Source: Tubiluchus corallicola
Lineage: Eukaryota > Animalia > Priapulida
Assembly (NCBI GenBank): GCA_030141605.1
Contig: JAQGDQ010000147.1
Location: forward strand, 310,001-374,000
Reading direction: 5' to 3'
Length of the DNA: 64,000 nt
Shown one piece after another: positions 14,803 through 63,079 of this stretch. Within the stretch, counting starts at the first letter, position 1. Each line of letters starts with the position of its first letter. The notes under the pieces were generated by a model. The model made no database searches. It saw only the letters and a program-made list of their open reading frames with translations, and had not been told where the DNA came from. The position numbers were made by a program, and so were the translations under genes.

Positions 14803-17800
14803 CCATCACCATCACCATCACCATCACCATCACCATCACCATCACCATCCACCGTCACCGTCACCGTCACCGTCACCGTCACCGTCACCGTCACCGTCAC
14901 CGTCACCGTCACCGTCACCGTCACCGTCATCGTCGTCATCGTCATCAATATCATCATCATCAATATCATCATCTATATCATCATCATCACCATCACCATC
15001 ACCATCACCATCACCATCACCATCACCATCACCATCACCATCACCATCACCATCATCATCATCATCATCATCATCATCATTGTCACTATCTCTATAGCTA
15101 TCGCTATCACATCACTATCACATCACTATCATTATCATTATTATTTTTATTGTTAATTTACTAATTAGTCACTGCTATTAATTACCTCTTTGTTGAATCC
15201 CTCGTTTTCCTGGACAATATCATCTTCCAACTCACTGGCACATCCATAACAACATCGCAAAATATACTCACGTCTCAACGGCTTTTTATTGCCACCTAGA
15301 GGACAAAATGTGAACCATCAGACTAAATCCAAGACACATGCATTGGACGTCAGACTGACAAGCAAAAAATTTTGTTAAGCAAGAAATCAATTGATACATT
15401 TTTTATTTTAGTGATGCTAAGTAAACATTAGACAAAATGCGCCATTATAATCAACAGTGTCCAAATATATTTTCCATCAAGTCAAGATTTTTATAAAATC
15501 TTTGCGCCTGTTGAAAAGAAACAATTTCCTTTGAAAGTGGTGACACCTGCTGTTGAATGTAATCACTAATACGACTCACCATCTTTAATTTTCCAAAATT
15601 TTATGACAACCTTTGTACTCAAAAACTACAAACGTTTTTGCAGTTCAGGAAGTGAAGTGGTACAATGTAGTAATAAAGTTGGAACACCGATTCCTGCTAA
15701 TGCACACTAACCCGTAATGACGCTGACCAGCACTCCCACAATGCAGCACGCTAACATGGCTATAATAACGTAGTACATGTATGATATTTTGTAGAGGCCA
15801 AAATGCTCTTCTTCTACTGGCGCTCTGTAAGCAAAGAGTGTTGCATTATTGCCTATTCGTAATGCAAAACATACTGGTATGTTATATAATAACTGAAAAA
15901 TTTATTGTCGCTTTTACTGAAAAAACTAACGATACTTGATGCTGAAAATAAGATTTATCTTACATTGTAGTTTCCAGTGTGGCAGCTATGGTTGTGGTGG
16001 TTGTGAAAGCTGACTCAGTATTATTACAACCCGCAGTACTCATAGGCAAGATTGGTGGCTTTACTTTTGCTAATGTAGTGCCAACGCCAATCCATAGTGA
16101 TAAAGCCAGGGAGCAAGTTAGACCTGCTAGCGCCCCCTAAAAAAACAATAAAAACGATTGAAATATTATAATTAACATTATGGTAAACAAGAGCAACACA
16201 AGAAACAGGCACTATAAATCTATTGCAAAAACAACAGTAAAAGCTGGCGAAAAACACTCTAAAATAAAAGAGTAGGAAGCTACAAAACATTTTACAATAA
16301 CTAAAACAACAAAACAAATGGTTAGCAGTGAAGCAAGAAGATGTATTGCATGACACTACCACAATTACTTTTAAAGTTGAAAAAGCAACAAAACAGAACA
16401 ATCAACAACAATGATATGCAACACTGAAGTAGAAAAAGGTACAGCACACGCAACAAAAACATTGAAAAAGCAACGATTTGTAACAAGAACTGCCATTAAG
16501 TCTAGCAAAACAACGCATTTGGACAGGAAGAGCAAGAATTTAGACGTAGTACTGCAATAAAGAACAAGGAGGAGCAGCACTGCAATAAAAACAGCAAAAG
16601 CTTGCAGCACTGCAAGTAAGTGAGAACAGCAAACAAGCGCAGCACGGCAGCAAAAACAGTGCTCAAGGAAGTGCAATACTCTAACAAACCATCGGAAATG
16701 TAGCACTGCTACGAAAAAAAACCATGAGCTAACAGAGCAACAGAAACTGAATGGTAAGGAATTGGCATAAGAAGAATAAAAAAAGATCTACAACTATTTA
16801 TTCCAAGTTTACTCACCCATTCGTTTGCACAAGGGAATACAATACCAAGAGTAAACACTCCAGCTACTGGACCACCAACCATTCCTAATAGTGAGATTGC
16901 TATCTGTGTTAAAAACATACAAACTTTAAAGTTTCATTAACATCCACGTTACATAACGTGTAATCGTATTTGAATCTCAAATATTCTTCAGTTCTGCTAG
17001 AAGGTAGGGATGCTTGTGATTTAGGTTCGTGTTTTGACTCACGGCGACAAAATTATATTTAACTAAGTCAGTGGTGGTATTTAGAGAGCACCGTTAATGT
17101 GAATTTCGTTGCTATTCAATGGCGGCATACCACCCACTGATATACAAGAATTCGTTTATATGGTTGTTAATTAATCGCTCAGCAGTAAATTTATGTGCTC
17201 GAAAAATTAGCGAGTTACATACTAAAAAGCTTAATCTCGTTAAACCACTGTCCATTCATCCAATCAGTTATAATTAAAGAAAACAGGTTTAAGTTACTTC
17301 ATGAAGTTACGCAAACCAAAACTGCAGTCATTGCTATTCATTTGTATGTAAAACTTAAATTCATTAAACAGGTTTATGCTGGTACAAAACTGCTGATCTC
17401 TTAAGGACAAAATCCACAAGATAAAATACTGTGAGAAGTATACAAGTTGACAGCTACTGCAACGTTGACGAATTCTACTCCTGTACATTGTTTCTACGTG
17501 TTTCAGTGTAATGGGATACAAAAGGTATAGACGTTTTAAAGTGAAAAATGTTTATAATTACTGTTATAAATATTACTTTCCCAGTTACAAATAAACCAAT
17601 TTATATGAAACCGAATTAATTATAAGCGATATTTTCACTAGACATTTAATATTCACAGCGGCGTAGAGTACATCCAATATACGCCCGCAGCGACGCGCGT
17701 CTGTTTTGTGAAATATAACGCGAGAAACCCTGTTAATCGAAATATGAGGAAAGGGTTAGAAGCTTAAAACTACTGTGTTCCGTACATGCATCTTTCTTCA

Positions 17801-20800
17801 TAAATGTTACTTTAGACGTTTTTCAAATCCATGCTCTTTTTATCAAACGAAGGTTATTTTGAGATACAAAGATAATCTGTAAGGTACAAAGAAATTTGTT
17901 CGTAAAAAAAATTTCAAGACATTACAAAATCTTTTCAAATTCATTTTAAAATCTTTGCGACCGTGCTTTCTAAAACACGCAAGTAAATTCAAGAAGTCGG
18001 CGATAACTTACAGTTAAAACGGCATTTCCAAACACAGATGTCATAAATGCTAGTCCTATTGTAAGCAGGCCATAAAAGCAAGCTGAAAAAGAAAGCAAAA
18101 ACGGAAAAATTAGTTTGAGACATTGTCTACATAATGGCACTGTTGTCGTGCGTTTAGGTAGAAAGAAATACCGAAGACGCTACGCCAAGAGATGAATTTG
18201 GATACCCAATTATCTGCAGAATGTGTTATCTAGAAATTTCAGTCAGACGGTAGGCAAGATTCCATTGATCAAAATCAAGGCAGGGGTTTTCTTTGTCGAC
18301 CTAGCTTCTGTAATCAGTGAAGAGCAATGTGAAAAGGCAAAAGCACAGCTACTTAGGCTAATACCTAAAGAAGTCACGGACAAGGCTAAACCATGCTACA
18401 AGCACACCGGCAATTGATGTACTGATTAATCTCATAAATATTGAATATGGTTAAATTGATGATTGTGATCACATGCCGATGTGTGTTGAATTTAATACTA
18501 AAAGAGATAGAATCTAAGTGGGAAAATTCTCTATTAAAGCTTTTTAGTTCAGTAGATGATACCAATCTTCCGTGTGTGTTGTTGCAAACGCTCTCAGGAA
18601 TCACTGAAAGTGTTCCTGCTTTGTCAATCCATAAGTTTCAGGTTGCTATAAGCAATCATTCTGCCCATAAATCAACAGTCTGATGATATTCAGGCAGAGC
18701 ATTTCATGCGTGCGTCGCCAACTACTACCCATTCTGGTTTCGTTATTTTGCTGTTCATGTATAAACCACGACGCCTCCCTGATGCCTGTAGATTGCTTAT
18801 GCTGTTTTCCTTTAGTAAAGGACAAGAATGGATAACAGATATGAATACTTATAGACCAACAGCCCAAAAAATACAAGTCAGTCAGTCAGTCAGTCAGTCA
18901 GTCAGTCAGTCAGTCAGTCAGTCAGTCAGTCAGTCAGTCAGTCAGTCAGTCAGTCAGTCAGTCAGTCAGTCAGTCAGTCAGTCAGTCAGTCAGTCAGTCA
19001 GTCAGTCAGTCAGTCAGTCAGTCAGTCAGTCAGTCAGTCAGTCAGTCAGTCAGTCAGTCAGTCAGTCAGTCAGTCAGTCAGTTCACCAAGTCAGTCAGTC
19101 ACGTCAGTCAGTCAGTCAGTCAGTCAGTCAGTCAGTCAGTCAGTCAGTCAGTCAGTCAGTCAGTCAGTCAATCAGTCAGTCAGTCAGTCAGTCAGTCAGT
19201 CAGTCAGTCAGTCAGTCAGTCAGTCAGTCAGTCAGTCAGTCACTAAAAAGTAATCGGTTCAGCAAACAGACAAACAAACAAACTGATCAAACAAAATTGC
19301 TCACTCTGCTTTTAATTTGGTATTGCGTAAGACATTTACTGTGTCGCACGTGAAACGACAGTATTGTACGCTTTATAAGAAACACACGATTTAGGGCTTC
19401 ACGACAGTTCATATCTCTCATATATAAAAATATCAGTAACATTTACCCAAAAGTTTGGAGATTGTTGTTGCCATTTCATCACGCATGCTACCATGCGTCC
19501 TCCACATATAAACTGGTTTAATGATATCAACCAGGGTAACAGCAGCTAACGAATTAACTCCTGATGAGACTGTGCTGTAACACATATAAATTTACATATA
19601 CATAACAATCACATTATATTTAGACAGTGTTTTCTGCATTGCATCATGTGAAAAATGCAGTGGAAGGAATTTACAACCCCCCCCCCCCCCCACACACACA
19701 CACACATTTTAAGTACCCTAGCCGTAATTTTAACCCTAATCCGCTTCACGAACTAATTTCTTGTGTGTGGGAATTGTAAATTTTAGCCGATTTAGTAATT
19801 ACGTAAGATTTGCATCACGCGTAAGCCTGCATTACTGATCCAACCTTTTTCACTTTTTCACATTTTCAGAATTTTTCACTACGGTTTTTAGTTACTGTAC
19901 GTTAGCACTTTCTGTAGCAAAACTTGCGTTTTAAAACGCTTTCAACCCTCAAACACAAAAATGTGCAGTGCCACCTATTAACAAGAAAGAATAATATTAT
20001 AATCTAACGCCTCTTTTAAACTAAAATTCCTAATAACCTGAGTGCTGCACTGAACACCGAAGCGGTAAACAGACCCGGAAGACCTCTAGCGAAGCTCAAT
20101 GTTTCCATAACAAACAATGGAAATAACTGAAAATAAAAATAAACTAAATTTTAGAAAACATTGTTTACTGTGGTTTTTGAATCAATAGGCCTAGCTCTAG
20201 GCTGCTCAAAAATTACAATACTCCTTTTCAAAAAAGAAATATAATGCTAAAAATAGGGATAAAAAATCTACTGCTGGGATTTGAACCCAGCACTCTTCTG
20301 TTACGTCCCTGAAATACGTTTGACACATCAACGAGGAAAAGAAGAGGTTAAAATGGCTACCTGGTCAGGTTTCTCCACGCCTTTAGTTGTGAGTGGGTCA
20401 CAATCAGCGTACTTTGCGTACATTATGACTCCGACAAGCGTAAATATGAATTGTATGATGATCCAGGAGGGCGCCATAAGCCAGCAGCAACTGTGTATAA
20501 AAATGCGAATATTGAACATCGGTGTCTCAACATCTTGTTGGATGCTGGGTTTCACAATTCTTTACTTATCAGTGACAAAATAAGCAGTGTTAATGACAGT
20601 AACATAATTACCATTACAAATACCATTGGCATTGTCCTTGTCCTGTTATTACCAGTATCAATATCAACGTCTTTGCCATTGGCGTCGTTTTCTTATCACT
20701 ATCATCATCGTCACCGTCGTCATCGTCGTCAACCATTATTATGGTTACCGTCGCCATCGTTATCATTTTATTACTATTATCATAATCAATTTATTTAAAT

Positions 20801-23800
20801 TTGTTACAGAAAATTTCTTTTGTTACAGAAAATTTCTAAGAAGATAAGGAAGACAATGCTTTAAAAGAATATTTTTTAAATTATTAAGCTTACAGCTGGG
20901 CTCTTCTTAGTGAGTTGATGCTCAAATATCTCTGCACTGTTGCCTGATTCGTTGCATACAAACTCATCCAGAAAAATGCACCCCCCACTATCAGCGTCCA
21001 GAAACTATGTCGTATTGTGGGATCAGGATCAAATCTGTAACCAACAATCAATATATCAATTTCCTTAAAGCTCTAAGGTGCTCACTACTTGGTAGGCACA
21101 GGCCTAGTGACCATTCGTTATCAAACAAAGTAATTATCCTTCAGCCAGCTGGACCCTCAACCCAATAGTCCAGTGCCGAGCACATACACATACAAGTGCC
21201 GTACACAAAAATTAAACTATACATGTGAGCTTATAATATGATGAAAACACTTTTTATTACTACTTATTGTTCCCATTTTTATCAGTTCCACCTTAGGATA
21301 TTAATAAGATGTTTCAACTTGATTCGAATATTCAGCAAAACTAAATACGCAAAACAAAGTTTGTAAAGTAAAAAAATACAGTTTATCTCACTTTAATCTC
21401 ACTTTGCGCATTTTTTCACAAAACTTGTAGAATTAAATCTGAAGAACAGCTGCGAGAGCCAGGAAGCTATCATTGTCAAGATCATTCAACGTAGGGTGTA
21501 ATAGATTTAGCTTGGTTTCCCGGAATGTCAAGCCTTCTCGCAACTAGCAATTTCCCGGACCCAACCACCTGATTTTTTTAAAAAAGTTTGATCAAACGCC
21601 AAAATTCTTTTGGGGGTACAAAAGACTTAAACATAAAATACAATAAATAAAGAGCTATATAAACCAAATGCAGGTATGCCTAAGCAACAGAAATATTTTC
21701 ATTGCGATTTAACAACTCTTTAATATTTAGTGATTTTAAAAGAAAAGAAAAGACAAATACAAATTTAAAGTGGAAAATGGACGTTAAACGATATAAAGTG
21801 GAAAATGGACGTTAAACGATATAAAGTTGTGTAACTTCTTCAACGTTAAATTTCGGCTAAATTTTCAGTTCCCTAAAGTTGGGCATACTGTTTAAAATAA
21901 CACAGATTAGCCTTTCACGCTCCAAGCTCATTTAAAAATCCGAATCCGCCAGTGTTTAAAATTTAATCATTCGCTCTATCACATATTTTTCCAAACCTGT
22001 TTCCAAAAGTCAGCGCTTTATTTTATAGATTCGTTTCTAATACATGTACTTGACAAGAGTGTCGGCGTAATTGGGTGAGAACTCATTATTCTACTGGAAT
22101 GAAAATGAAATCACACATTTTCTTTACGTTGTAAAAGTATTTGTTATTGCATGACATATAATTCAAAGCATATTAGCTTTTGCTATCAATGTAAGGTAGA
22201 CGTTAACCTAGATGGAAAACTGGCTTAACGCGATACTGTAAATATAAGCCCATAGGTTTATAACGTACAGCAAATGTTAAATATAAATCTGTGAAGTGCA
22301 GATATGGCATTATTCAAGTAGGCTATTTGACATTAAACAGCACGATTAAATGGCTGACACTGCAAAAGTGGTTGTTTCTTGGAATATTTAAATTACAAGA
22401 GACTATAGTCGATATAAAGACTTCAGTGTCATGTTAGTATAAATCATTATTAATGGACAAATTCTTACTCAAACCACTGTATTCTGTTTCCTTCACTAGC
22501 AATCGTCCATGCCTCGCTGATTCCTCCCAATTCTATTGAACCCTTGATGACTACAATGACAGTGCCGACAATGATAACCAACATTTGGAAAGTATCTGTC
22601 CACATGACAGCTTTCATGCCACCCTAAAAAATAACAATTAAAACTAATATTACCTAGTTGCAAGATGTGAATCTTTACATGTCACTCACCACTGCTTACC
22701 ATTACAGTGTGCCAGGGTCGAATAGAGCAAATGTGGCGTAAATGTGTCTTCATAGATCTCAAAAGTTACTATTGTAAGGTACCCCAAAGATAGACAGTGT
22801 AACTTAGGAGGGGCGTGAAGATGTTCTCATGGACCTCTCATTCACTATCGTAAAGTGTCACAGAGTCAGGTACGGTATCTTTTACTAGCTGCAGTGATAA
22901 AACTCATTCTATTGGGTGCCACTGTTTGTAACATAATGATGTATTAAATGTCATCTTTATAATACCTCAGGTAATTCTAGTTCTAGTTAAATGACTAGCT
23001 TTTAACATTGTCATAAAACTCCTTTGGACAGGGCGCTTTCCTTTAACACTATGCAGCCATTAACACCCTTATTTCTGTCTTTGTTTGCTAGTTCTCGCTT
23101 ACAAGGTAAGCGTCATGACTGCTAGACTATCAACCTCTTCTTTCGAATAAACTTGGTTTTAAAAATCAACAACTAAAGATTCATTTCACGGTTAATAATA
23201 ATATTGAAATACACAATTAAAAATAATGGAACTACCTTACAAAGTACACGCATAAAATGCCTATTAAATCACGTTTATCTCCCGCCAAATAATACCAGCT
23301 GGCTGTCAGCGTGAAGATACCCATAACAAAATTTCTGTAGATCACTCAGAAGTTCCGTTATTAATGTAACGCAACGCAACGCAACGCAACGCAGCGCAGC
23401 GCAGCACAGCACAGCACAGCACAGCACAGCACAGCACAGCACAACACAACACAACACAACACAACACAACACAACACAACACAACATAACATAACATAAC
23501 ATAATATAATATAATATAATGTAATGTAATATAATATAATATAATATTATACGTGAATTGTATTGTTCTTAGTACAATCGTATTATTATCAGTTATTGTA
23601 TTAAATTGTTGTGTGTTATCTGAATCGTTAACTGTGAGTGATACAATTTGACTGAAAATGGATTTAAAAGTATAATGTGTAAAGCTGAATTAAATTTCAG
23701 GAATACAGTAGCTACAAATTGCATTACTTTCTTAGACTACTAACCTGGCGCATTTCATATATACATGAATGTGTGTATAACACGCATACGCACACGCACA

Positions 23801-26800
23801 GATATATATAAAATATTATTAGAAAACACCTCTGGTGTGCGGATCTATAAGATGCGAGTCCACAATATAGTAACAAAAACATTAGAGAAAAGCACGCACG
23901 CAGGCACGCGCACACGCACACGCACACGCACACGCACACACACACACACACACAGCAGTTAATCTTCCAACATTAATTTAATTTAGATGTTTAGCTTTCG
24001 ATACATATATATATATATAATTGTATATATAATATGTTCATTACATATAGATAATTGTAACTACAGCTGCAAAAAAATTTGCTCAAGCAACAGGTGGGAT
24101 AGATGTTGGTAATTACATACACTGTACCCAATGACGTTATTCTTCGTTCAAAATGAGTGCCTCCGGGCGTGAAATGATCGCGATTTCAAATTGATTTTAC
24201 TAATTATACAAGACGTTTATCATAATTTTATTTATTGCTGAAAGTTTCTAATATTTGTCTCAAATATTAAAATAGGTTGAACTTCCCTAGAGCATTGACT
24301 TCTACTTTAAGATTATAAATAATTTTCAAGTTAAGCAAATGATCTTCTTAATGATAAAAGTGTGATTTTTAATAATTATAACTTGTGGATGGAGACGACC
24401 AGCTGCTTTGATGTTGTACAGGGGATAGGAACAACCTTTTGTGTTGATTTATCCGATTCTCCCAACACATTGCATGCATTCCTGACTTTAAATCTTGTTT
24501 AAAACCTGTTTGAGTCTTTTATCAGCGTCAATATCATTACGCCTATTACTAAAGAATTATACGTCTGAGTGCGTGTTTGAGGTTTGGGCATTAAATAGAT
24601 AACGTCGCAACTAAATTATACAAGGAACGATCATCCATTTACGCAATGCGATGGGATTGTATGTTGTGTAATTTATATGTATTTGTATATTATATACTCA
24701 CTATTGTGGTATAGAACGTACAGATTAAGCCAGAGCTCACGACGGACACCCAAACTTCTAAACCTGTTACTGAAAACAGAAAAAAAACGATGAATAAATT
24801 GTTTACAAATATTTAGGAATTGGATGTATTGACACAAGAGGTGCTAATGTTTATCAAAAGTCTTAGTTCTCATTTTTGCAACTTACCTTGTGCCAAAGCT
24901 AAAGCTGGGGCGTATAAAACCACTGCCATATAGAGAAACTGTAGAAAAATGAAAAAAGCAGAATTATAATAGAAACTAGAATCAACGCTTAATTAAAGAT
25001 TTTTATTCTGTTGAGTATCAGACGTTATCAGATTTTAGCTGTTGCAAAGGCTTATGAAATATGTGAAGAATGCTGCAGATTATATTTTAGTCTAACTTAG
25101 TCGGTCGTTTAGCAAGTGACATAGTCAGACCCAACAATTTTACTCTTCATGTATAACTGTAGCTGTCTCAATTAGATTATACTTGCAACATTCATACAAA
25201 CTAAAACGCTAAATGCCGTTAACATTTAACAATAAAATTTGTTCAACTTCATATTTAATATTTAATAAAAAATCATACCATTGTCATGATGAATAAAACT
25301 ATTCCAAACCGTCGTATAAGCTTATTGAATCGAACTTCTAGATACTGAAAACAAGAATATGCACTTAATCAGTAGCAGGCTACGTTGTTGTGCAGTTTTA
25401 CTCTAATGACGTGGTTCAAACGCCCATTGTTAATTTACATAAAATAGTGCCCATGTTAACGTTCATTAAAAAAGAGCAAAAATAGAAATTTCTAACTTTC
25501 GTCCAACGAAACGAGCGGAGTATATAGATTTGTGCTTAATACTTAGCTAAGGATAAACGTACTTTCGAAAGGGATAAAAAGTTTGAGTCTATAATCGATG
25601 CTCAGTGGTGATACTACAGACTTTGGAATGGTTTCAAATTATCCCTTTTCAGTAATCTTCTGCATTCTACTGCTTAAAATACACAGATATGTATTACCTC
25701 TGACAAATGCTGCACCTCTTAGAACAAAATATTAAGCACAATCTAAAACAAAAACCATGCTTTTTATTTCCAATTTCAAGGCTATGTTTCTAGAGACATA
25801 TGTAGCACAGCTCACAAGGTTAACTTAACTATTATTGTTCAGGTCTTTTTCAGCCCTATAGGTAATACGTTTTGTGAAGTACAATTCCGCCAAGCTAATC
25901 CTGCAAAATTCACGCTTTCATAAAAAATCACTGCAAACGAGTGTTAAGATGTGTTCAACAAGCTGAAATCTAGGAGTGCTTTTTCCGAATGAAAAGCGCT
26001 AAATGGCCAAATCGTTTTAGAATGTTTTTTTAGACAAAATGAAGACTGTTGTGCAAAAGCCTGCGTTCACGGCCAAGCTTGCCCAAAAACAGCAAGGAAT
26101 ATAGCAGATAACAATGACTCAGAACAACAAAGAATATGGAAAAGAACGACGACTCAAAACAGCACAGAATGTGCAAATGACTCGAAACATCACTGTTTCG
26201 AAAGTGTGAACATTGAAAGAACAACATGGAATATGCGAAGAATAACGGTGCGCGGTAAAAATAGCACAGGTAAAAATGGCACAGGAAAAATGGCACGATA
26301 ATAATGGCACAGGGAAAATGGCACAGGAAAAATGGCACAGGTAAAAATGGCGCAGGAAAAAGTGCACAGGTAAAAATGGCACGGACAAATGGTACAAATG
26401 GAAAAGTAAGTGAAATGGCACAGGAAAAATGACACAAATGGAGAAGTACGACAAGGATGGCACATATGTTATTTTGATGCAATTGATTTCTATAATAAAC
26501 TAGAATGCGCTCAATAGGAAGCAAATCTCTGCCAAAACCGAACAATCCTATTTCGTCTGATTCTTTTGATCAAAAAAATTTAACACAAAGATAAACAAGC
26601 AAACATACAAAAATGTACAAGTATTGGTATTACACAGACTAGCATAAGACACAAAATATTTGTTCATTAAATAGGAAATCTGTTAGGTAGTTTTTGCGTA
26701 ATAAGCTTACTACCATAACAGACAAAAACAACCAAACAAACAGACAAACAAACAAACAAACTTCGATTAATCATTTATTGAGATTTTTCTGCCAAACTGT

Positions 26801-28047
26801 CTAGATATTATGTTACTCAGAATCCCATTTAGCGTTGCAACAGAATCCATTTTATCGTAAAAATTTAGACTAACGAGTAACTTTATTGTGACTTCATAAT
26901 ATAAAAATTGGCTAGAAAGTTACGGAATGAATAACAACGAAAACGAGACCGGTCGTCTGACGAAAGCAAACTGTTTATAAAGTTACATCGTCAACTAGTA
27001 ACTTAATAATTTAAACTAAGCATAAATTAGTTTCTGGTTTTTACGTACCTCATAAGCACTAGTGAGATTCAATTTATGATAAACTGGAATATAAATGTGT
27101 GCTGTCATTGCCATTGCGGGAATCATTGAGAACATAGTTATCCAGTACATTGTACTAAACCTAAAAATTAATGCAGTGAATTAACAGACAATTAACAAAC
27201 AGTTAGGAGCCAGTTAGTCAGCAGTTTTGTGCAAAAACAGAAACCTCGACTCAGTTATTATACGATCGGAATAGCCAACTAAATTGAGGTTACGATTTAT
27301 TATTTATTTCAGTTTCTCAAGTAGAAGCCATAATTCTGTACGAAATTAATAGCTACATTTGGTAAAACTGCCGGCTATGTTGAGCTGCTGCTTGAGAAAA
27401 ACACTGTGGCTCACATGTATGTTGGGATGTGCATTAGCTAGCCAAATTTGTGGCCCCAAAATATATTTTTATTGCTGGGAACATGTGAATTGTTAATAAT
27501 TTTGCTATATGCTTATCTGATTTGCATGCAGAAATGCATTTTTGGTCGAAAACATAGTGGCCGCGGCACGCTGGCTCGTGAATGAATTTATTTATTGCTG
27601 TATTTTGGCGTTCATCGACCCATTTCTTGTTTTAAAAGCAGGTTTAATATGGCTTTAGGTCAAATTGTTATCACATCATACCTGAGTGCATAATTATATT
27701 GCTGTGTAGCTTTGCAAAAAATAAATTAAATGGTTGCATGTTTAATGCGTTGAATTAAGCCTATATGAGTAAACTTTCTAGGGCTACTATTCATGTGCAA
27801 TGAGTGTTTACCTGTAGGTTTCGGACGGTACTCCTAGTACTGATATTCCTGAAACGAAACTGGCTACGAGGGACATGGTTGCCGGGAAAAGGCCCATTTT
27901 TCGATTGCCCAGTAGGAATTCTTTCGTTGTCTTTTGTCTGCCTCCGGTGCAAGCGTAGAATACCCCGATTGCTGCAGAAACTGTCAACGAAATGCCGAAC
28001 ACGACATAATCAACAACTGTAAACTTCGGCGAGTCTACTGCAGACAT
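14484..28047 (-). CDS. SLC5A8-like: Sodium-coupled monocarboxylate/multivitamin/iodide symporter (SLC5A5/6/8/12 clade), whole gene, 16 coding exons, 626 aa
   Basis: 16 GT-AG exons join in frame (1881 nt): 27812-28047, 27049-27160, 25279-25344, 24887-24938, 24702-24769, 22469-22623, 20894-21034, 20361-20490, 20038-20126, 19447-19574, 18012-18082, 16817-16903, 15964-16136, 15712-15824, 15186-15295, 14484-14633. SSS-family motifs: DYVVF, SLVASFVSGISVLGVPSE, TSAYEYLEVRF, YAPALAL, GGMKAVMWTD, FDPDPTIRH, NQATVQRY, SAALSTVSSGVNSLA. The exact vertebrate orthologue cannot be resolved without a tree. Confidence 0.95.
14742..15150 (+). repeat. (CAT)/(CACCAT)/(CACCGT) compound microsatellite in the last SLC5 intron
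   Basis: direct reading. Confidence 0.97.
15186..15295 (-). CDS. SLC5 coding exon 15
   Basis: GNKKPLRREYILRCCYGC...FNKE, phase-compatible, open. Confidence 0.8.
15712..15824 (-). CDS. SLC5 coding exon 14
   Basis: HFGLYKISYMYY...VGVLVSVITG (last TM helix). Confidence 0.9.
15964..16136 (-). CDS. SLC5 coding exon 13
   Basis: GALAGLTCSLALSLWIGVG...LPMSTAGCNNTES (N-glycosylation sequon in a Thr-rich loop). Confidence 0.9.
16145..16790 (+). repeat. A-rich low-complexity degenerate repeat (gcaacaaaa/gcactgcaa units)
   Basis: Fills SLC5 intron 12 and generates spurious F/C/L-rich ORFs. Confidence 0.7.
16817..16903 (-). CDS. SLC5 coding exon 12
   Basis: IAISLLGMVGGPVAGVFTLGIVFPCANEW. Confidence 0.94.
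18012..18082 (-). CDS. SLC5 coding exon 11
   Basis: ACFYGLLTIGLAFMTSVFGNAVLT. Confidence 0.92.
18150..18560 (+). mobile_element. Highly decayed LINE endonuclease remnant in SLC5 intron 10
   Basis: GN*CTD* (~GxSxIDY) followed by DCDHMPMCVEF (~SDHxP), with stops. Confidence 0.4.
18877..19241 (+). repeat. (GTCA)n tetranucleotide microsatellite
   Basis: direct reading, ~365 bp. Confidence 0.98.
19447..19574 (-). CDS. SLC5 coding exon 10
   Basis: TVSSGVNSLAAVTLVDIIKP...ISKLL (Na2-site helix). Confidence 0.94.
20038..20126 (-). CDS. SLC5 coding exon 9
   Basis: LFPLFVMETLSFARGLPGLFTASVFSAALS. Confidence 0.94.
20270..20335 (-). mobile_element. tRNA-derived SINE head remnant
   Basis: B-box GGTTCAAATCC within a T-arm-like stem (ctggg...cccag); no full cloverleaf. 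Confidence 0.4.
20361..20490 (-). CDS. SLC5 coding exon 8
   Basis: CCWLMAPSW...YAKYADCDPLTTKGVEKPDQ. Confidence 0.93.
20894..21034 (-). CDS. SLC5 coding exon 7
   Basis: FDPDPTIRHSFW...NQATVQRYLS. Confidence 0.95.
21766..21827 (+). repeat. Perfect 28-bp tandem duplication
   Basis: taaagtggaaaatggacgttaaacgata x2. Confidence 0.95.
22469..22623 (-). CDS. SLC5 coding exon 6
   Basis: GGMKAVMWTDTFQ...EGNRIQWF. Confidence 0.95.
23363..23548 (+). repeat. Compound pentanucleotide microsatellite
   Basis: AACGC, AGCGC, AGCAC, AACAC, AACAT, AATAT blocks. Confidence 0.97.
23893..23954 (+). repeat. (CA)/(CACACG) microsatellite
   Basis: direct reading. Confidence 0.95.
24702..24769 (-). CDS. SLC5 coding exon 5
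   Basis: VTGLEVWVSVVSSGLICTFYTTI. Confidence 0.93.
24887..24938 (-). CDS. SLC5 coding exon 4
   Basis: FLYMAVVLYAPALALAQ. Confidence 0.93.
25279..25344 (-). CDS. SLC5 coding exon 3
   Basis: YLEVRFNKLIRRFGIVLFIMTM. Confidence 0.92.
26255..26465 (+). repeat. ~14-15-bp minisatellite (AAAAATGGCACAGG)n
   Basis: More than 10 degenerate copies. Confidence 0.9.
27049..27160 (-). CDS. SLC5 coding exon 2
   Basis: FSTMYWITMFSMIPAMAMTAHIYIPVYHKLNLTSAYE, canonical splice sites. Confidence 0.92.
27812..28047 (-). CDS. SLC5 coding exon 1
   Basis: MSAVDSPKFTVVDYVVF...GVPSETY, donor AG|GTAAAC. Confidence 0.9.
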
Positions 28048-29241
28048 GACAGGATGGCTAGGCACTGTCACAAAATAATAAAATTTTGCTATTCTTTGTC
28101 GCTGAACGCTTTCATAAAACCCTTTCTTGTCTTTTGCGGTTTCTACAACACACTGATTAAGTGTGACCTTCTCATCTCTTAACTGTTTTCGCAACTGTGA
28201 TTATGTTATATAAGACGGAAACCTCGGTTACTGAAACTTTTAACATGCATTAATGCTTTAAACCCGTTTCACTGCACTGAATAATTATTGTCGCAGATAC
28301 AGCTTGTACTTGTAGGCCTTACAAATAGCTATACCTTGCCTTCTGCGTATGCTATTTACGTAGCTTTCAAAGTCGTTCAAGCTTCAGCGAATTTGCGTTT
28401 CCGTAAAATTCGCATTTCATTCCGTAAAGAAAATGGCATGTACATGTGGAAGTACATGTACATGTATTTATGTGAGTACATATTATTTCGGATTTTCGTA
28501 GAAATCATGGAAGCGTGAAAAGTGTACCAGCTAAAAAGCTAGCAGAAATTTGTACGAAAATCAGGTGATAATAGCTTAGCAACACGCTTTACTGATCAGT
28601 GCGTAACCGCATATGCAGTGTGCTATTTGAAGTATTCATACAAATTTAAATTTCTTTCACCATGAAATCTCAAAAAGCTGGACACTCGTACGTAATTGCT
28701 AGTTGCCGTGTGTGCAGTATGCGCGTAGTATGAATTTGTCATTTAGCATACAGAGTGTCAGAGATTTTGAAACGCGTTCATTAATTCGATTTCACTTTCT
28801 TTGTAGCTAATCAACCAACGTAGCAGTAATGTTCATTTTCTGGTAAACTGTTTCAGCAGGTACTATTGAGAATTTTTTAGTTTACATTGGAAGTTCTTCT
28901 GCTCTCATGCTGAATCTAGAACAGAGAGTAAACGAACCTAAAATCGGCTATATATAGAAAAGAGAGTAGTATATACATGCATGAGTAAATTAAAGCTGTT
29001 ACGGCACGAATCCAAGTTTGGTGCTACCAAAATTCCTATGAATACTATTGAAAAAATGAAAAAGTAAGAGCAAGAAAATTAAAAGGCTTAAAAAGAAATG
29101 AAAACATTAAAAATAATGAACATGTAACAATAAAGAGGGACTTTTTGGAGTCCAGTATACAACATGTTATGCTAACTTTCGTTTCCAGTTTCTGAGCAAA
29201 GTGTTGTTACAGAAAACGTTATTTTTCTGTACATTGTAAGT

Positions 29242-30465
29242 AATTAATAAAAACAATTGTAACCAAAAACTATAACTGGAAGCTTCTGCTGCTTGACAAG
29301 TTATTCCAGTAACTAAACAAAGGAACATGCGCATGCATGAAGAAATGAATAAAAACAACAAAAAAGCAGCTAGTCAACCAAGTGAACGAGTGAATAATCA
29401 CTCCAACGAACTAATAAAAGAGGTGAAAAGGAAGAAAGGATATAAGCGTGTTAATGATCCGCGTACTTTTAAAGGAAAGAGTTAATTCTAAATGAGTTTT
29501 ATGACAATGTTAAAAGTTAGTCATTAAACTAGAACTTCTCGTGAATTAAGCCTACAAAGACACACAATAGAATGAGCTTTATGAGTACAGCTTGTGAAAA
29601 ATACCGCATGCTTCTCTGTGACACTTTAGCTGTGAATGGGAGGTTATAAGAAGACATTTTCACGCCCACGTATAGTTACCCTGTCTGATTCTGGGACATT
29701 TTGCAATTGTCAGTAGGAGGTCTATGAGGACATCTTTACGTCCGCAGTTACCCTGTCTAACTCTGTAACACTTTTGAATAGTGAGTGGGTGGCATTTAGG
29801 CAGTAAAAAGGAATTTCGGTCAATGGACTACTGTTTGCGGATTTCCTTATACCAAATGATTGTAATTGCTGCTAAAATTCAAAAACAGGCCATTTTGATG
29901 GCCATAATCACACATTAAAATTTTGTTGATTGTTTTGTCGATATTTTCGAAGGAGCTTCTACCCGAATTAATAAAAACATTTGTAACCAAAAGCTATAAC
30001 TGGAAGCTTCTGCTGCATGACAAGTTATTCCAGTAACTAAACAAAGGAACATGCGCATGCATGAAGAAATGAATAAAAACAACAGAAAAGCAGTTAGTCA
30101 ACCAACTGAACGAGTGAATAATCACTCCAACGAATTATTAAGAGGTGAAAAGGAAGAAAGGATATACGCGTGTTAATGATCCGCGTACTTTGAAAGGAAA
30201 TAGTTCATTCTAAATGAGTTTTATGACAATGTTAAAAGTTAGTCATTAAACTAGAATTTCTATTGCATTAAGCTACAAAGACACACAATAGAATGCGCTT
30301 TATGACTACAGCTTGTGAAAAATACCGCATTTTTCTCTGTGACACTTTAGCTGTGAGTGGGAGGTCTATAGACATCTTCACGCCCACTTATAGTTACCCT
30401 GTCTTACTCTGGGACATTTTGCAATAGTCAGTAGGAGGTCTATGAGGACATCTTCATGTCCACAG
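29242..30465 (+). repeat. ~500-bp direct duplication (29242-29748 and 29966-30465)
   Basis: Near-identical copies ~720 bp apart in the SLC5/DHRS4 intergenic region. Confidence 0.93.
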
Positions 30466-30696: not shown

Positions 30697-30738
30697 ATGT
30701 CAGTGCTAAGGTTGCTTAGGCATTCTGTCGCTTTGCAG
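30697..30738 (+). CDS. DHRS4: DHRS4 putative first coding exon ([14 protein letters not shown])
   Basis: ATG plus a consensus CAG|GTAAGT donor; phase 0 joins in frame to the acceptor at 30991. Confidence 0.65.
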
Positions 30739-33700
30739 GTAAGTTAGATTTGTGTTGGAACTGGACTCTGGAATCTGTGTACGAATATGTTTATGATCGC
30801 CTTTAGTAGGTTAATAAGCCGTTAGTACTGGATTGATTATAACTGTTAGACTATAAATAATTTGAAAAAACCTACGAGAATTATAAGGAGTTGTATAACT
30901 GGTGCAGCCATTTTATTTTGAAGATAAGGCAGTAGAGCTGCGTTTAAAAATTTGCGGCAACAAATTATTGCATTGTTTTTTTACGTTACAGGAAGGAACA
31001 TTGACTAAGCTAGTTTTACGTCTGGCAAGCTGCACAATTTTTGTAACTGACCCAAGTATGTCTACTGCAGCAAAACTGGCAGGTAAAGTGGCGGTTGTAA
31101 CGGCCTCAACAGAAGGGCAAGTACTAGACAATTTAGAAAAAAATTATTTTATGTAGACTGTAGAGTATAGAGTAAAGACCATTTTTCAGCATGTTAACAG
31201 GCAATGTTATAGGGTTTGTTACATTTGACTGTCACTATTATTCAGTATTTACAAGTTGATGATGTGTTCATAAATACATGGAAGATTTTTCTCATCATGG
31301 CTATTTTTCAGGATTGGCTTTGCCATCGCCAGACGGTTAGGCCAAGATGGAGCACATGTTGTAATTAGCAGCAGAAAAGAAACCAAAGTAGAAAGAGCTT
31401 TGCAGCAACTACAGTCAGAAGGCTTGAGTGTGGCGGGTATTGTGTGCCATGTTGCGAAGTCAGAAGACAGGACGCGACTCATTGCTAAGGTAAATGTTAT
31501 GTGCTGTAGTACACCCAGTCATCGATATATGTGCACATTCGGCTCTGACTGACTGGTTGTAAGGAGATTTGGATTTAAGACAGACATATATAATGGCTGT
31601 ACATTACCCTTAACTCATGGTGTTTGTTTATACTTGTGGTCGCAAAGTTGATGCAGATATTGTAAGTCCTAAGTCTACAACTGCTTAAATTATTAATTGA
31701 GCACTTTTATCCCCTGATTTTTCAAGTCTGTGGACTTTAAAGTCAAACTAAACCCTCACTATAATATAAGCTTTTACAACTTAAAATCCTACTCGCATTA
31801 CGAGTGTTCAATTTATTTTATTGTAAACCTACTGTAAAACTTGTTTCTTTTGATTTTTTATCACTTCATTGTTAATGGTATTAAACTTGAAGAACCGCCA
31901 TTTCTCGTTGCACAAAACGATTGACGTTATGAATATAGTCACATGGCCACCAAAGATCGGCAAACAAACATGGGTACCAAAGACGTTTTCTGTACTTCGT
32001 ACTTCATTCTCGCTCACTCGCTCCAAAGACTTGAAACATGGTGATTTTTACGGCAATGCACATGTTCGAAATTTGCCAGAAAAAGGTTGATTATTTAATT
32101 TATAAGTTTATTTTATTTAATAATAACTATGAATTATTTGTGTGATAATGCATTAAAAAAACTTCAGTGTTTGTGTGGTTACATAGGCCTTTAATTGCAT
32201 ACTGTATTTTTTTCAGGCTTTAGAAAAGAATGGTGGAATTGATATTCTCGTGTCAAATGCTGCTACCAATCCACACATGGGACCAATGTTGGAGGTACTT
32301 CATTAATTTAATATTTCTGTCTATATTGTAAGATTATGCTTCAATTACTGCATTCTAACTTCGCAATTTTTTCTTGTGTAGCACTATTAATTTAAGATTT
32401 ATTAAATCAGTCCTTGCTGTAGAAATTGTCAGCAAGCTTATGCTTTTTCTTGCTGGATGGTATTGATAATAAGTCTCTTTTATGTTTGTCTATTAACATA
32501 TGCTACGTAAATTGGACTTTTTGGCTAACATGTAGTTCTATGCTGTAATTTGCAATAATTGTGTGCCATTTTTCTCGTAGTTTCACTTTTTGTCTTTGGA
32601 TTTCGCCTTACCTTAATCAAACCACTTAACTAACTAAACCGATTTATTTTACTTTGTTTCTAAACCATTTTTAGGTAGTAAGCTTAATTTATTTGCTTTT
32701 GTGTGACATTGGACTGCTTTTCAAACTGTGATCTTTTGGAAAGAAATGCTTATAACCAGTAGTAACTGTTATGCTTTGGTAAAATGAAAGTAATTAATTA
32801 AATAGAAAATCTAAAATATTATCGCTAGTTATTGCCTTTCAGTGACAAAGGGAACTCAGTGATTAGAAATTGGCATAATAATTTTTTCTAGTTTGTGTAT
32901 CATATATTATATGTCTTGCAGTGCATTTATTGTAGTATTTGTATAATATGAGACAGATTTCAAGATTAAATTTCAACTGATCACAGCTACAACTGTGCAT
33001 AATGCATAGTTGATGGATGGTTTCATACACTCAAACTTTCAAACACGTGACTTTCTTGCCATCTAGTTAGCATAATACACGGAAACCTTCATAAATGGCT
33101 GTCTTGAATCTTAGTAATGGAGGTGTTCTGTGAAAGTTGTTCTATGGAATTTGTTTTTTTTCTGTTGCAGACAACAGAAGAACAGTGGGACAAAGTAAGT
33201 GGTAGACACGTTTTCGTGATTGTCTTCATTGACATATCCATTTGGCAGGTTTGGCCTGCCTATACACTTCTCTTATTTTTGGCTGTGTCCTCAAAGGCTC
33301 CAATTAAATTATAAATAATTATTTGCCTAGGTTTATGTTTAAGTTGATTTTTGTGACACACCTGTTACTCGGTTTGATAAAGCTGAGCACCAGTAATATC
33401 AGAAATTCTTTTTCGGTGAAATTCTGGTAGCAATAATAACCTTAATCATATCACTAGCCATAGCAGTCTAACAAGCTCGAAATTTGAAGTAATTATGATT
33501 TTTACAAAAGTTTGAAAACTTGTAGACTAAAAATGTCAAGTGTCACTTAAACCTTCTGATGGTTGCAAAGGTAGCAAATGTGTTGCCAGCTGGAACTTGA
33601 GGAGAGAAGCTTATTTACTCTTAGACTAAGTTAGGCCTAAAGCCAAGAAAAACCGAGTGCCAAATTGAAGCTTTCTGTTTCAAAATCCTAGATCCGACAC

Positions 33701-35505
33701 TACTTTTCTCATGCCATTTTGTCATGGATTTCAAGTCGATCATATGTTTAATTTGATAAGAAATTCAAGTCTTCTATAGAAGCAACAGCAGTGTTTTCAT
33801 AACTGCTTAACAGAAAATTGTTAAATTAACTGTGAATAACAGTTTATAATTCATTAATATTTGGAGGGAATAGTTGCAGCAATCGCTTTTTACCTTTTGC
33901 AGCTGTTTGACACCAACGTGAAGGCTGGATTTTTTCTAATCAAAGAAGCTGTGCCACACATGCAAAAGAAGCGGTAATTTTTTATTACTTAATGTTAACT
34001 TTTTTCAAGAAACAAATTTTTTCAAACTCAACTTATTCCTGTTTACTATGCATTTAATCTGAGCTGATTTGATGCGATTTGATATAATCTAATCCAGTTA
34101 TAGAAATTTCCCTTTCTTGGGAAATAAAGATGTGTTTTTGCCTGAAGTTTATACGGTATCTGCTTTTTCGTGAGTACCACTTTGTTTGGCATTTAGGGAC
34201 CAATTATTAAAATTTGAATAACCAAACGAAGTGATTTACTCACATATTGTCTTTTAGCCTATTTTTTTTACATTATTTCAGTAACGGTAGTATTGTGCTG
34301 GTTTCTTCCATTGCTGGGTATGTTGAGCGTAACCAGGTAATTTTGGTTTCCTGACGATTTTTAAGCTGTATTTTGCATTATTTTCAGTGGTGGTAGTATT
34401 GTCCTGGTGTCTTCCATTGGTGGGTATGTTCCACTTGAGGTAATTTTGGATTCCTGATTATTTTAAAATGATGAAGTATTCAATTTTATTTTAAAGCTAA
34501 AATTAACCGTAATCTAATGTTACATATTAATTGTGTGATAGTAATCTAATTAATTAATTTAAAAGCGATATTGCCCATGAAAGAGTTGATACCTGTCCAG
34601 TTAACAAGCTGCTAATTAAATTGCTGGGTGTCTTAATTCATTTGTTTTATCTTAAATCGAGTGAATGATAAATTTGTCTTATATCAAAGTAAAATTAGCA
34701 GCCAAATGCATTATACTGAATTGAGCTTCAAGTATAATTTATTGTATATTATATTTCTCAAAAATGTTTCTTTATTTAGATGCTGGGTCCATATGGGCTA
34801 ACTAAAACAGCTTTGTTAGGCCTGGTAAAAAACTTAGCACCACAGTGTTCCAAACTTGGGATTCGAGTTAATGCAATTGCACCCGGTGTCATAAAAACTA
34901 AATTTAGTTCAGCGGTAAGTGTAATAAAATGTGATGAGATGTTTTGCGAATTAGTGAAAAGATTAATGAGGATCTATAGGAAAGTCATAATTATCTGGCC
35001 CGAATTATTGGGAATGTGATATACTGTATGAAATATTTTATCTGTAGATTCTATAGTAAAGAGCTTTTTAATTGATATTGGTCATTAACGTGAATGTAAA
35101 CCAAAACCTTTTGAATAGTGTTTCTTATTTTTTATGCACATTGCAGTGAATATTTTTAATATTCACATAAACATTTTATTTAGAGCAACAATTTGTTAAC
35201 TTTTGATTTGACTGCCAAGCTATGTATTTTAGCAGTGATGAAGGTAAGTGTCTGTGTAGTACTTTGTAGTTGGATGGCAACAGTTATTAAGTGTAGCCTC
35301 ATACAAAATATTTTATCTAGTCTATTTTTTACAGTTATGGACAGACGAAACTTTGGCCGACGAATTTTTGAAGGTTTGTCCGATGGGTAGATTCGGTGAG
35401 CCTGATGAGTGTGCTGGTGCTGTTTCATTTCTTTGTAGTGACGATGCTTCTTATATTACTGGCGAAACATTATGCATAACTGGTGGCATGATTTCCAGAC
35501 TGTAA
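30697..35505 (+). CDS. DHRS4: Dehydrogenase/reductase SDR family member 4-like (peroxisomal NADPH carbonyl reductase), whole gene; 291 aa from ATG 30697 or 255 aa from ATG 31058 (with exon 7b)
   Basis: Exons 30697-30738, 30992-31116, 31312-31489, 32217-32294, 33171-33194, 33903-33973, 34282-34336 or 34388-34439, 34780-34914, 35335-35505. DHRS4-type TASTEGIG cofactor motif, [12 protein letters not shown], catalytic VSS...YGLTK, SYITGE, C-terminal PTS1 -SRL. Confidence 0.95.
30992..31116 (+). CDS. DHRS4: DHRS4 exon 2 (internal ATG 31058; GC donor)
   Basis: ...[22 protein letters not shown], donor GG|GCAAGT. Confidence 0.88.
31312..31489 (+). CDS. DHRS4: DHRS4 exon 3
   Basis: [22 protein letters not shown]...[16 protein letters not shown]. 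Confidence 0.96.
32217..32294 (+). CDS. DHRS4: DHRS4 exon 4
   Basis: [26 protein letters not shown]. Confidence 0.96.
33171..33194 (+). CDS. DHRS4: DHRS4 exon 5 (24-nt microexon)
   Basis: ttgcag|TTEEQWDK|gtaagt; supplies the conserved EExWDK. Confidence 0.92.
33903..33973 (+). CDS. DHRS4: DHRS4 exon 6
   Basis: [23 protein letters not shown]. Confidence 0.95.
34282..34336 (+). CDS. DHRS4: DHRS4 exon 7a (alternative, duplicated)
   Basis: [18 protein letters not shown], 55 nt, intact AG/GT, same phases as 7b. Confidence 0.7.
34388..34439 (+). CDS. DHRS4: DHRS4 exon 7b (ancestral-like)
   Basis: [17 protein letters not shown], 52 nt. Confidence 0.9.
34780..34914 (+). CDS. DHRS4: DHRS4 exon 8
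   Basis: [15 protein letters not shown]...[17 protein letters not shown] (YxxxK). Confidence 0.96.
35335..35505 (+). CDS. DHRS4: DHRS4 terminal exon
   Basis: LWTDE...[27 protein letters not shown]...ISRL*. Confidence 0.96.
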   Translation, partial: LWTDETLADEFLKVCPMGRFGEPDECAGAVSFLCSDDASYITGETLCITGGMISRL

Positions 35506-62712: not shown

Positions 62713-63079
62713 CCATTTCATCCATTTTACTAGACATTCCTAACGTTGCTCCAACCAGTATCACACTCATTAGCAGAAGTCCTAGAGCTACTAGCATGAT
62801 AGCTCGACTGATCCTCTTTCTGCGTTTGGCTTCCTCTTTGTCCTCCTCGGATTCATAATCCTCTAAAGGTTCGCATCTGGTCGAATAACTGACTATTCTG
62901 CTGTCCTGGCTAATTCTGCTGACGCTACACAGGTCATTTTCAGACCGATACACGTGATAAGTTGGTTTGTAACCACGAACTGCATGGTGGTTGCACTCAC
63001 ACGGATATTCCATCGGGTATTCTTCGGTTGACAGAATTTCAATTTCATTGTCTTCCTTGTCCATTCTTAAGGAGCTCAT
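62713..63079 (-). CDS. Uncharacterised single-pass (type II) membrane protein, coding exon 1
   Basis: 122-codon complex ORF with acidic stretch, KRRKRISR, a ~23-aa hydrophobic helix and MSSKMDEM; donor G|GTAAGT. Upstream acceptor tttaacag at 63149 and a donor at 63344 imply a 5'UTR intron. Confidence 0.8.

What the first reader, a model, noticed from the sequence alone, without database searches (positions are those of the whole stretch)
34262..34465. Tandem-duplicated, probably mutually exclusive active-site exons in DHRS4
Seen: two homologous exons, 7a (55 nt, [18 protein letters not shown]) and 7b (52 nt, [17 protein letters not shown]), each with intact AG/GT sites, identical phases and duplicated intron flanks. 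Including both (107 nt) or neither shifts the frame. The spacer is only 51 nt, and its best branch point (CTGAC 34351-34355) lies ~18 nt from the 7a donor. The beta-strand and catalytic Ser are kept with synonymous changes (GTG/GTC, GTT/GTG), while replacements and a frame-preserving 3-nt indel cluster in the loop before the catalytic Tyr. Established: a short donor-to-branch-point distance enforces mutually exclusive splicing, and the SDR loop between Ser and YxxxK shapes the substrate pocket. From memory (to verify), residue 176 of mammalian DHRS4 in this loop affects 3-ketosteroid stereospecificity. Inference: one gene yields two reductases with a hydrophobic (VPLE) or charged (VERNQ) pocket. 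I know of no such switch described for DHRS4.
Basis: partly seen in the sequence, partly recalled or inferred. Interest (0 to 1): 0.85.

Follow-up and report, generated by a model that had tools for sequence, protein, structure and literature searches.

The report
Twin active-site exons in DHRS4
An invertebrate's DHRS4 reductase gene carries two side-by-side copies of the small exon that builds the catalytic serine and substrate loop, so it likely makes two enzyme versions by using one copy or the other; database records show a swap of the same stretch in amphioxus and an apple snail, but use of the second copy here is untested.

Summary
Exons 7a (34282-34336, 55 nt) and 7b (34388-34439, 52 nt) are homologous, in phase, have intact splice sites and lie 51 nt apart. 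A DNA-run contig carries both. Using both or neither gives an early stop. 7b is the ancestral, working exon: it has the human exon's length, a relative's transcript-like contig splices 6-7b-8, and a relative's protein matches it 18/18. No record uses 7a, but assembled contigs drop minor isoforms. The 7a sequence alone does not prove selection: dN/dS is 0.61, near the 0.5 expected if only 7a drifts. It loses a Pro kept in 110/120 homologues and adds a residue. The best support is comparative and new: annotated DHRS4 isoform pairs differ only within this exon in amphioxus (4 pairs) and the snail Pomacea (1 pair), and no other internal exon shows this. In all three lineages the alternative exon has Ala two places after the catalytic Ser and a polar residue at pig Phe158's site, as human DHRS4 does. 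Verdict: a probable (0.6) mutually exclusive exon pair of a known kind, apparently recurrent in DHRS4. The scan noted similar pairs in two other dehydrogenases, not in DHRS4.

The parts
30697..30738 (+). DHRS4 exon 1 (start of an N-terminal extension)
   Evidence: Open frame and GT donor; 12 of 14 residues match the relative's protein P0048
30992..31116 (+). Exon 2, followed by a GC donor
   Evidence: tblastn to homologues
31312..31489 (+). Exon 3 (178 nt, same length as human exon 2)
32217..32294 (+). Exon 4 (78 nt)
   Evidence: joint in X2 contig
33171..33194 (+). Exon 5 (24 nt; exons 4+5 = 102 nt, as human exon 3)
   Evidence: joints in X2 contig
33903..33973 (+). Exon 6 (71 nt, as human exon 4)
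34237..34281 (+). Branch-point-like motif (A at -40) and pyrimidine tract of 7a, as good as those of the gene's other acceptors
   Evidence: motif scan, (prediction only)
34282..34336 (+). Exon 7a: derived copy, 55 nt; strand and catalytic Ser kept, loop ending VERNQ; use not shown
34337..34387 (+). 51-nt spacer made of the duplicated donor flank joined to the duplicated acceptor flank; CTGAC at 34351-34355
34388..34439 (+). Exon 7b: ancestral-type copy, 52 nt (as human exon 5), loop ending VPLE; spliced 6-7b-8 in a relative's contig
34440..34467 (+). Second copy of the donor flank (24 of 28 nt identical to 34337-34364)
34780..34914 (+). Exon 8 (135 nt, as human exon 6), carries the catalytic YxxxK
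35335..35505 (+). Exon 9 coding part, ends in SRL (peroxisomal-signal type; label recalled) and stop
   Evidence: joint 8-9 in X2 contig

Best explanation
A tandem duplication of about 105 nt copied DHRS4 exon 7 with its splice sites, and the two copies are likely spliced one-or-the-other, with 7b as the main form and 7a likely a minor alternative predicted to change the substrate pocket. Shown: the duplication, the frames, the stops for both or neither, 7b splicing in a relative, and the exon's place in the fold (the strand before the catalytic Ser and the loop leading to the Tyr helix). Inferred: the duplication left 7b's branch point 18 nt from the 7a donor, too close for the two copies to be joined, so the pair was exclusive from birth, with nonsense-mediated decay as a backstop. 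7b kept the ancestral job. 7a kept the strand and catalytic Ser and rebuilt the loop, replacing the hydrophobic residue at pig Phe158's site with a polar one. By analogy with pig versus human DHRS4 (recalled), the 7a form would shift stereo- or substrate preference towards the human type (3-beta products, weak on retinal). The high similarity of the intron flanks suggests a young duplication in this lineage that parallels the amphioxus and snail pairs.
For: Isoform pairs from one annotation that differ only inside this exon's span: amphioxus XP_078688695.1/96.1 (9 differences, residues 160-175), XP_078608711.1/12.1 (10), XP_066288363.1/64.1 (8) and CAH1269488.1/87.1 (8), all within 159-174 for the last three, and Pomacea XP_025115901.1/03.1 (11, residues 163-179). 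Among 210 DHRS4-like proteins, 42 of the 239 pairs that are at most 5% different outside exon 7 differ strongly inside it; all 42 are amphioxus or Pomacea, so two lineages. The same test gave 0 pairs for exons 4, 5, 6, 8 and 9, 1 for exon 3 (two Haemonchus species) and 2 for the exon-2 core (Dreissena). In 3 of 3 lineages the standard exon has Gly at Ser+2 and Phe/Leu at the Phe158 site, and the alternative has Ala and Asn/Ser (7a counted back from the Tyr); human 3O4R has Ala/Ser and pig 2ZAT Gly/Phe. Two of 7a's replacements are family residues: Ala at Ser+2 in 68/120 and Asn at the first codon in 2/120, one being Priapulus. Codons 2-14 carry 1 replacement and 2 synonymous changes. 7a keeps its donor, acceptor, tract and branch-like motif. 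The 51-nt spacer is under half the shortest other intron measured in the window (117 nt; 8 DHRS4 introns 195-876 nt). Under 50 nt from donor to branch point is the steric criterion in PMC5740500 (passages).
Against: No record uses 7a: 2 of 2 transcript-derived sequences covering the exon use 7b (P0048; X2 contig). Whole-exon dN/dS is 0.61 (Fisher P 0.47), close to the 0.5 expected if 7b is constrained and 7a drifts. With a one-branch neutral rate of 0.08-0.15, an intact core has P 0.09-0.39, intact AG+GT 0.52-0.62 (rates 0.11-0.15) and no stop 0.92-0.96, so intactness is not surprising. 7a gives Ser-to-Tyr spacing 14, against 13 in 119 of 120 homologues and in all amphioxus and Pomacea alternative exons. 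It has Glu where 110/120 have Pro and 0/120 have Glu, and only 2 of 120 homologues score as low on the exon profile. Priapulus caudatus, the nearest named homologue, has one annotated protein. Across the 120 homologues Ser+2 and the Phe158 site are not coupled (Ala: 55 hydrophobic, 12 polar; Gly: 34 and 11). 7a is not clearly closer to the amphioxus alternative exons (scores 37-42) than to the standard one (38). The genomic layout of the amphioxus and snail exons was not seen.
Confidence: 0.6

Rival explanations
1. 7a is a young, silent pseudo-exon. The duplication was harmless because the two copies cannot be joined; 7b took over and 7a is drifting, still intact by chance.
For: dN/dS 0.61 against 0.5 expected; each sign of intactness is unremarkable under a one-branch neutral rate; a loop unlike 119/120 homologues; only 7b seen in transcript-derived records; intron flanks have diverged about as much as synonymous sites (4/22 and 4/14).
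Against: Six of the seven replacement changes sit in the first codon and the loop, leaving a 13-codon run with one change to the family-consensus Ala (run-length P 0.008 if all 11 changes are independent point changes on 7a; this null overstates the case). Strong splice signals on a useless exon should waste transcripts and erode. The same exon is swapped in amphioxus and Pomacea annotations with parallel changes.
Confidence: 0.28
2. 7a is used, but it makes a weak or inactive subunit, or serves as a splice sink. It would then tune DHRS4 level or tetramer activity and not substrate choice.
For: Loss of Pro, an extra residue and two charges just before the catalytic-Tyr helix could spoil the site. 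P0001, a relative's 101-aa product from a 1315-nt contig, begins exactly at the first codon of exon 8, which fits a branch or frame break just upstream.
Against: The catalytic Ser, the strand and the frame are kept. Natural DHRS4-like proteins lack the Pro (10/120) or have a longer loop (a Ptychodera paralogue, spacing 15). P0001 is equally explained by a retained intron or a contig end.
Confidence: 0.07
3. The pair is not young: 7a descends from an ancient bilaterian alternative exon shared with amphioxus and snails, and gene conversion from 7b has overwritten its core and flanks.
For: Amphioxus and Pomacea pairs match across phyla: standard to standard scores 53, alternative to alternative 48-55, crosswise 29-35. 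They share rare states (Ala at the first position in 4/120, Gly at Ser-1 in 7/120). 7a shares Ala at Ser+2 and the penultimate Asn with amphioxus alternatives.
Against: 7a lacks Gly at Ser-1 and shows no clear score preference for the amphioxus alternatives. The duplicated unit includes intron flanks at 80-86% identity with a clean junction in the spacer. No second form is annotated in Priapulus.
Confidence: 0.04
4. The duplication is an assembly artefact.
For: Short AT-rich tandem units can be mis-assembled; run X1 may be the window's own source.
Against: The copies differ at 20% of sites plus indels, and one 831-nt short-read contig carries both.
Confidence: 0.01

Closest known systems
Mutually exclusive homologous exons from tandem exon duplication (Hatje et al. 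2017, PMC5740500; Martinez-Gomez et al. 2022, PMC9741552; passages read, author names recalled), e.g. KHK and ACOX1 among enzymes
   Same: Adjacent homologous exons in the same phase; steric branch-point distance under 50 nt; frame shift on joint inclusion; catalytic residue kept while neighbours vary (as stated for KHK); convergent origin in different phyla.
   Different: Most described events are ancient and validated by junction reads. This one looks young and has no read support for 7a. DHRS4 was not found as an example in the passages or the one supplement searched.
Annotated DHRS4-like isoform pairs of Branchiostoma (XP_066288363.1/64.1, XP_078608711.1/12.1, XP_078688695.1/96.1, CAH1269487.1/88.1) and Pomacea canaliculata (XP_025115901.1/03.1)
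   Same: Differences confined to the same exon span; standard form with Gly at Ser+2, Pro and Phe/Leu; alternative with Ala, a polar Phe158 site and often no Pro.
   Different: Their alternative exons keep the 17-codon length and have Gly at Ser-1; 7a has 18 codons and Ser. Their pairs look old and mutually similar; 7a/7b look recent.
DHRS4 (SDR25C; pig 2ZAT, human 3O4R, C. elegans 5OJG)
   Same: 57-58% identity, TM-score 0.97-0.98 to the mammalian structures for the 7b form of a relative; exon lengths 178/102/71/52/135 as in human; Ser-Tyr-Lys triad; C-terminal SRL.
   Different: Human DHRS4 has one such exon and varies by exon skipping and whole-gene duplication (PMC2892492, passages).

Membership tests
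DHRS4 (SDR25C) | Best sequence and fold matches are DHRS4 | tested here: met
   (done with the relative's protein P0048, 266/291 identical to the 7b form)
DHRS4 (SDR25C) | Catalytic Ser, Tyr and Lys present in both forms | tested here: met
DHRS4 (SDR25C) | Ser-to-Tyr spacing of 13 with Pro in the loop | tested here: inconclusive
   Met by 7b; 7a has spacing 14 and no Pro; 1/120 homologues has another spacing and 10/120 lack Pro
DHRS4 (SDR25C) | NADPH-dependent carbonyl reductase activity | not testable with these tools
   needs an assay
Tandem-duplicated mutually exclusive exons | Adjacent homologous exons, same phases, no in-frame stop, canonical splice sites | tested here: met
Tandem-duplicated mutually exclusive exons | A mechanism that bars joint inclusion (short donor-to-branch distance or frame shift) | tested here: met
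   Predicted branch A at +18, all candidates within 44 nt; early stops for both or neither; the branch point is predicted, not mapped
Tandem-duplicated mutually exclusive exons | Junction reads that bridge each exon to both neighbours | tested here: inconclusive
   6-7b-8 seen in one contig of a relative; nothing for 7a; only assembled contigs were available
Tandem-duplicated mutually exclusive exons | Both copies conserved in related species under purifying selection | not testable with these tools
   No genome of this species or a close relative was held; within-pair dN/dS 0.61 is inconclusive
Docker/selector RNA-structure type of mutually exclusive exons | Competing base pairing between duplicated flanks and a shared intronic site | tested here: not met
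   0 of 8 flank-intron duplexes beat shuffles (best 10 of 100 shuffles as good)

The most novel reading that the evidence does not exclude
Exon 7 of DHRS4 is a recurrent evolutionary switch. Chordates (amphioxus), molluscs (Pomacea) and this priapulid-like ecdysozoan each splice between a pig-type pocket (Gly, Phe/Leu) and a human-type pocket (Ala, Asn/Ser), so one gene toggles the stereochemistry of steroid or retinoid carbonyl reduction; this window catches a fresh, independent re-invention of that switch.
Probability: 0.25. Interest if true: 0.75.

Novelty: new member of a known kind. Interest (0 to 1): 0.52.

Why it matters
The architecture is textbook. What adds value is that the same 17-codon active-site exon of DHRS4 appears to have an alternative in three phyla, with parallel changes at the positions that separate pig from human DHRS4. 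If true, it is a compact natural experiment on how a splice choice can set the stereo- or substrate specificity of a short-chain reductase, testable with a few recombinant isoform pairs (amphioxus and Pomacea pairs are already in databases). If 7a is silent, the locus is still a clean example of an exon pair made exclusive by the duplication itself.

Tried and rejected
No whole genome is held for this window. The run search listed no RNA holder; the two runs are assembled contigs only, so the lack of 7a cover in X2 is no evidence. A search for short fragments around exons 6-8 found 7 of 7 candidates, none a close relative with a 7a-type loop. The metagenome scan gave 3 loci at 29% identity, not useful. 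Competing RNA pairing was not supported in 8 of 8 tests. My first neutral simulation (P 0.002-0.03) put all 11 changes on 7a as independent point changes; the one-branch version gave P 0.09-0.39 for the core, so the first is not used as proof of selection. One search used two wrong exon starts and was redone. Only the 7b form (relative's protein P0048 with 112 homologues) was modelled; the 7a form was not. The Endo et al. 2009 paper on stereospecificity is not held; only its title was seen in a reference list, and searches for the residues found no passage. Not-in-print searches: DHRS4 + mutually exclusive exon, 3 papers, DHRS4 passages read, none describes it; short-chain dehydrogenase + mutually exclusive exons + substrate specificity, 0 papers; DHRS4 + amphioxus + isoform + exon, 1 paper, passages read, no isoform pair mentioned; the one held supplement of PMC9741552 had 0 hits. 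Subscription papers and supplements of PMC5740500 were not seen and may bear on the claim. A search for priapulid intron lengths gave nothing useful (listing only).

Full report
What is there. The window holds one DHRS4 gene on the + strand, from 30697 to 35505 (tblastn shows no second copy in the window). Between exon 6 (ends 33973) and exon 8 (starts 34780) lie two homologous exons: 7a at 34282-34336 (55 nt) and 7b at 34388-34439 (52 nt). Both have AG/GT ends and the same phases, and a 51-nt spacer separates them. The spacer is the duplicated donor flank joined to the duplicated acceptor flank, so the unit is about 105 nt; the copies align at 80% over 100 nt and there is no third copy in the window. 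With 7a or 7b alone the frame is open (292 or 291 aa, ending SRL). With both or neither, a stop falls 178 or 113 nt before the last junction. One 831-nt contig of DNA-type run X1 carries both copies with two intronic differences. X1 may be the window's source, but together with 20% divergence this makes an assembly artefact very unlikely.

Gene and organism. A database protein from a close relative, P0048, is 266/291 identical to the 7b form. Its best structure matches are pig, human and C. elegans DHRS4 (TM-score 0.94-0.98). Exon lengths 178, 78+24, 71, 52 and 135 equal human 178, 102, 71, 52 and 135 (PMC2892492, table passage), so 52 nt is the ancestral length and 7a is the derived copy. In a 41-protein tree P0048 groups with Priapulus caudatus (99/90). 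The animal is probably a priapulid or a near relative; this rests on one gene. In the model of P0048 the exon encodes the strand at 175-180, the catalytic Ser182 and the loop up to the helix that carries Tyr195.

Which exon is used. A 197-nt contig of run X2 (RNA by guess; a relative, about 91-97% identical in exons) joins exons 5, 6, 7b and 8. P0048 matches the 7b peptide at 18 of 18 positions, while differing at 25 elsewhere. No record shows 7a. Only assembled contigs were available, and these drop minor variants, so this neither supports nor excludes low or tissue-restricted use. P0001, from another relative, starts exactly at exon 8's first codon; this fits a branch just upstream but also a retained intron.

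Exclusion. The only YTNAY motif before 7b has its A 18 nt from the 7a donor, and every A in the spacer other than that of the AG is within 44 nt. PMC5740500 uses under 50 nt as the steric criterion and counts frame shift as a second mechanism (passages). Animals with very short introns tolerate less distance (recalled). In this window, though, the other eight DHRS4 introns are 195-876 nt, and three of the shortest gaps in the neighbouring transporter gene measure 117, 139 and 234 nt. No competing RNA pairing beat shuffles in 8 tests. Exclusion is therefore well supported as a prediction, and it came with the duplication.

Is 7a under selection? The copies differ by 11 substitutions and one codon: 4 synonymous in 14 sites and 7 replacement in 37, dN/dS 0.61. 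Because 7b is constrained, a drifting 7a would give about 0.5, so the ratio decides nothing. The replacements are clustered: codons 2-14 hold one (Gly to the family-consensus Ala). A simulation with all 11 changes as independent hits on 7a makes that rare (P 0.002-0.03), but a one-branch rate gives P 0.09-0.39, and the loop changes may be two indel events. The 7a loop is odd for the family: spacing 14 against 13 in 119 of 120, Glu for a Pro kept in 110 of 120, and a profile score above only 2 of 120. A hand count gives about 9 synonymous changes in 37 sites of exon 9 between the window and X2 (a lower bound, since the table was cut). That is similar to the 7a/7b distance, so it is open whether that relative has 7a at all.

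The comparative result. Of 25 clusters whose members I listed, those of amphioxus and Pomacea hold same-length isoform pairs that differ only in this exon's span: four amphioxus pairs (8-10 differences; two annotations of B. lanceolatum, two contigs of a B. floridae hybrid) and one Pomacea pair (11 differences). A systematic test on 210 proteins found 42 such pairs for exon 7 among 239 close pairs, all from those two lineages. It found none for exons 4, 5, 6, 8 or 9, one for exon 3 and two for the exon-2 core. No swap was seen in Priapulus, oyster (15 of 54 members listed), Dreissena, Patella, Biomphalaria, sea stars, urchins, lampreys or Xenopus. I did not see the genomic layout in amphioxus or Pomacea; that these are tandem exons of one gene is inferred from the isoform names and the sharp limits. 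In all three lineages the standard exon has Gly two places after the catalytic Ser and Phe or Leu at the site of pig Phe158, and the alternative has Ala and a polar residue (Asn or Ser; for 7a Asn if counted back from the Tyr, Arg if counted from the strand). Pig 2ZAT has Gly/Phe and human 3O4R Ala/Ser (positions counted by hand). From recall, Endo et al. 2009 showed that Phe158, with Leu161, sets 3-alpha versus 3-beta products; I saw only the title, and that human DHRS4 makes 3-beta-hydroxysteroids (PMC3184775 and PMC2823645, passages). Leu161's site lies in exon 8 and is not swapped. Against over-reading: the two positions are not coupled across 120 homologues, and 7a scores no better against amphioxus alternatives (37-42) than against the standard exon (38). 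The amphioxus and snail pairs match each other crosswise-specifically (53 and 48-55 against 29-35), which hints at an old shared pair there; the window's pair looks like a separate, younger event.

Verdict. The feature is real. The most likely reading (0.6) is a mutually exclusive pair with 7b as the main exon and 7a as a minor exon that reshapes the pocket; a silent young copy is the main rival (0.28). It is a new member of a known kind: tandem-duplicated exon substitutions, including convergent ones and enzyme cases such as KHK, are documented (PMC9741552, passages). The searches named under Tried and rejected found no paper on this switch in DHRS4. The scan's own notes hold similar pairs in an RDH-like dehydrogenase and in HADH from other genomes, unchecked by me, and nothing for DHRS4. 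Interest 0.52, resting mainly on the recurrence in three phyla.

Noticed in passing
proteins P0056/P0360, P0326/P0361, P0327/P0057, P0330/P0059, P0142/P0352: Amphioxus and Pomacea DHRS4 isoform pairs swap the same exon and share rare paired residues across phyla. The amphioxus standard exon is identical in all 7 records listed while the alternative varies (loops RANE, RASE, KPNE). Possibly an ancient bilaterian exon pair; worth its own study.
   Followed up: partly
proteins P0118, P0096, P0115, P0078: A second amphioxus DHRS4-like gene and the snails Batillaria and Nucella have only an alternative-type exon on record; a Ptychodera paralogue has a loop two residues longer.
   Followed up: partly
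window 31116-31312: The intron after exon 2 has a GC donor (GC-AG intron).
   Followed up: no
window 30697-31057 and 35494-35505: A 36-residue N-terminal extension, also present in the relative's protein, precedes a second Met; with the C-terminal SRL this suggests mitochondrial and peroxisomal forms (labels recalled, not tested).
   Followed up: no
protein P0001: A relative's 101-aa product from a 1315-nt contig begins exactly at exon 8's first codon; its contig could show what lies upstream of exon 8.
   Followed up: no
window about 31737-32150: High-copy repeat in DHRS4 intron 3 (summed contig depth up to about 1600 in run X1).
   Followed up: no
window about 29250-30460: Two similar stretches about 720 nt apart just upstream of DHRS4, seen by eye.
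   Followed up: no
window about 15600-28100, minus strand: Multi-exon membrane transporter gene; about 14 exons mapped with 17 unnamed homologues. It looks like a sodium-solute symporter (name recalled; Pfam gave no hit on the first exon).
   Followed up: partly
window 62705-63115, minus strand: 136-codon open frame with a hydrophobic C-terminal stretch and no Pfam hit.
   Followed up: partly
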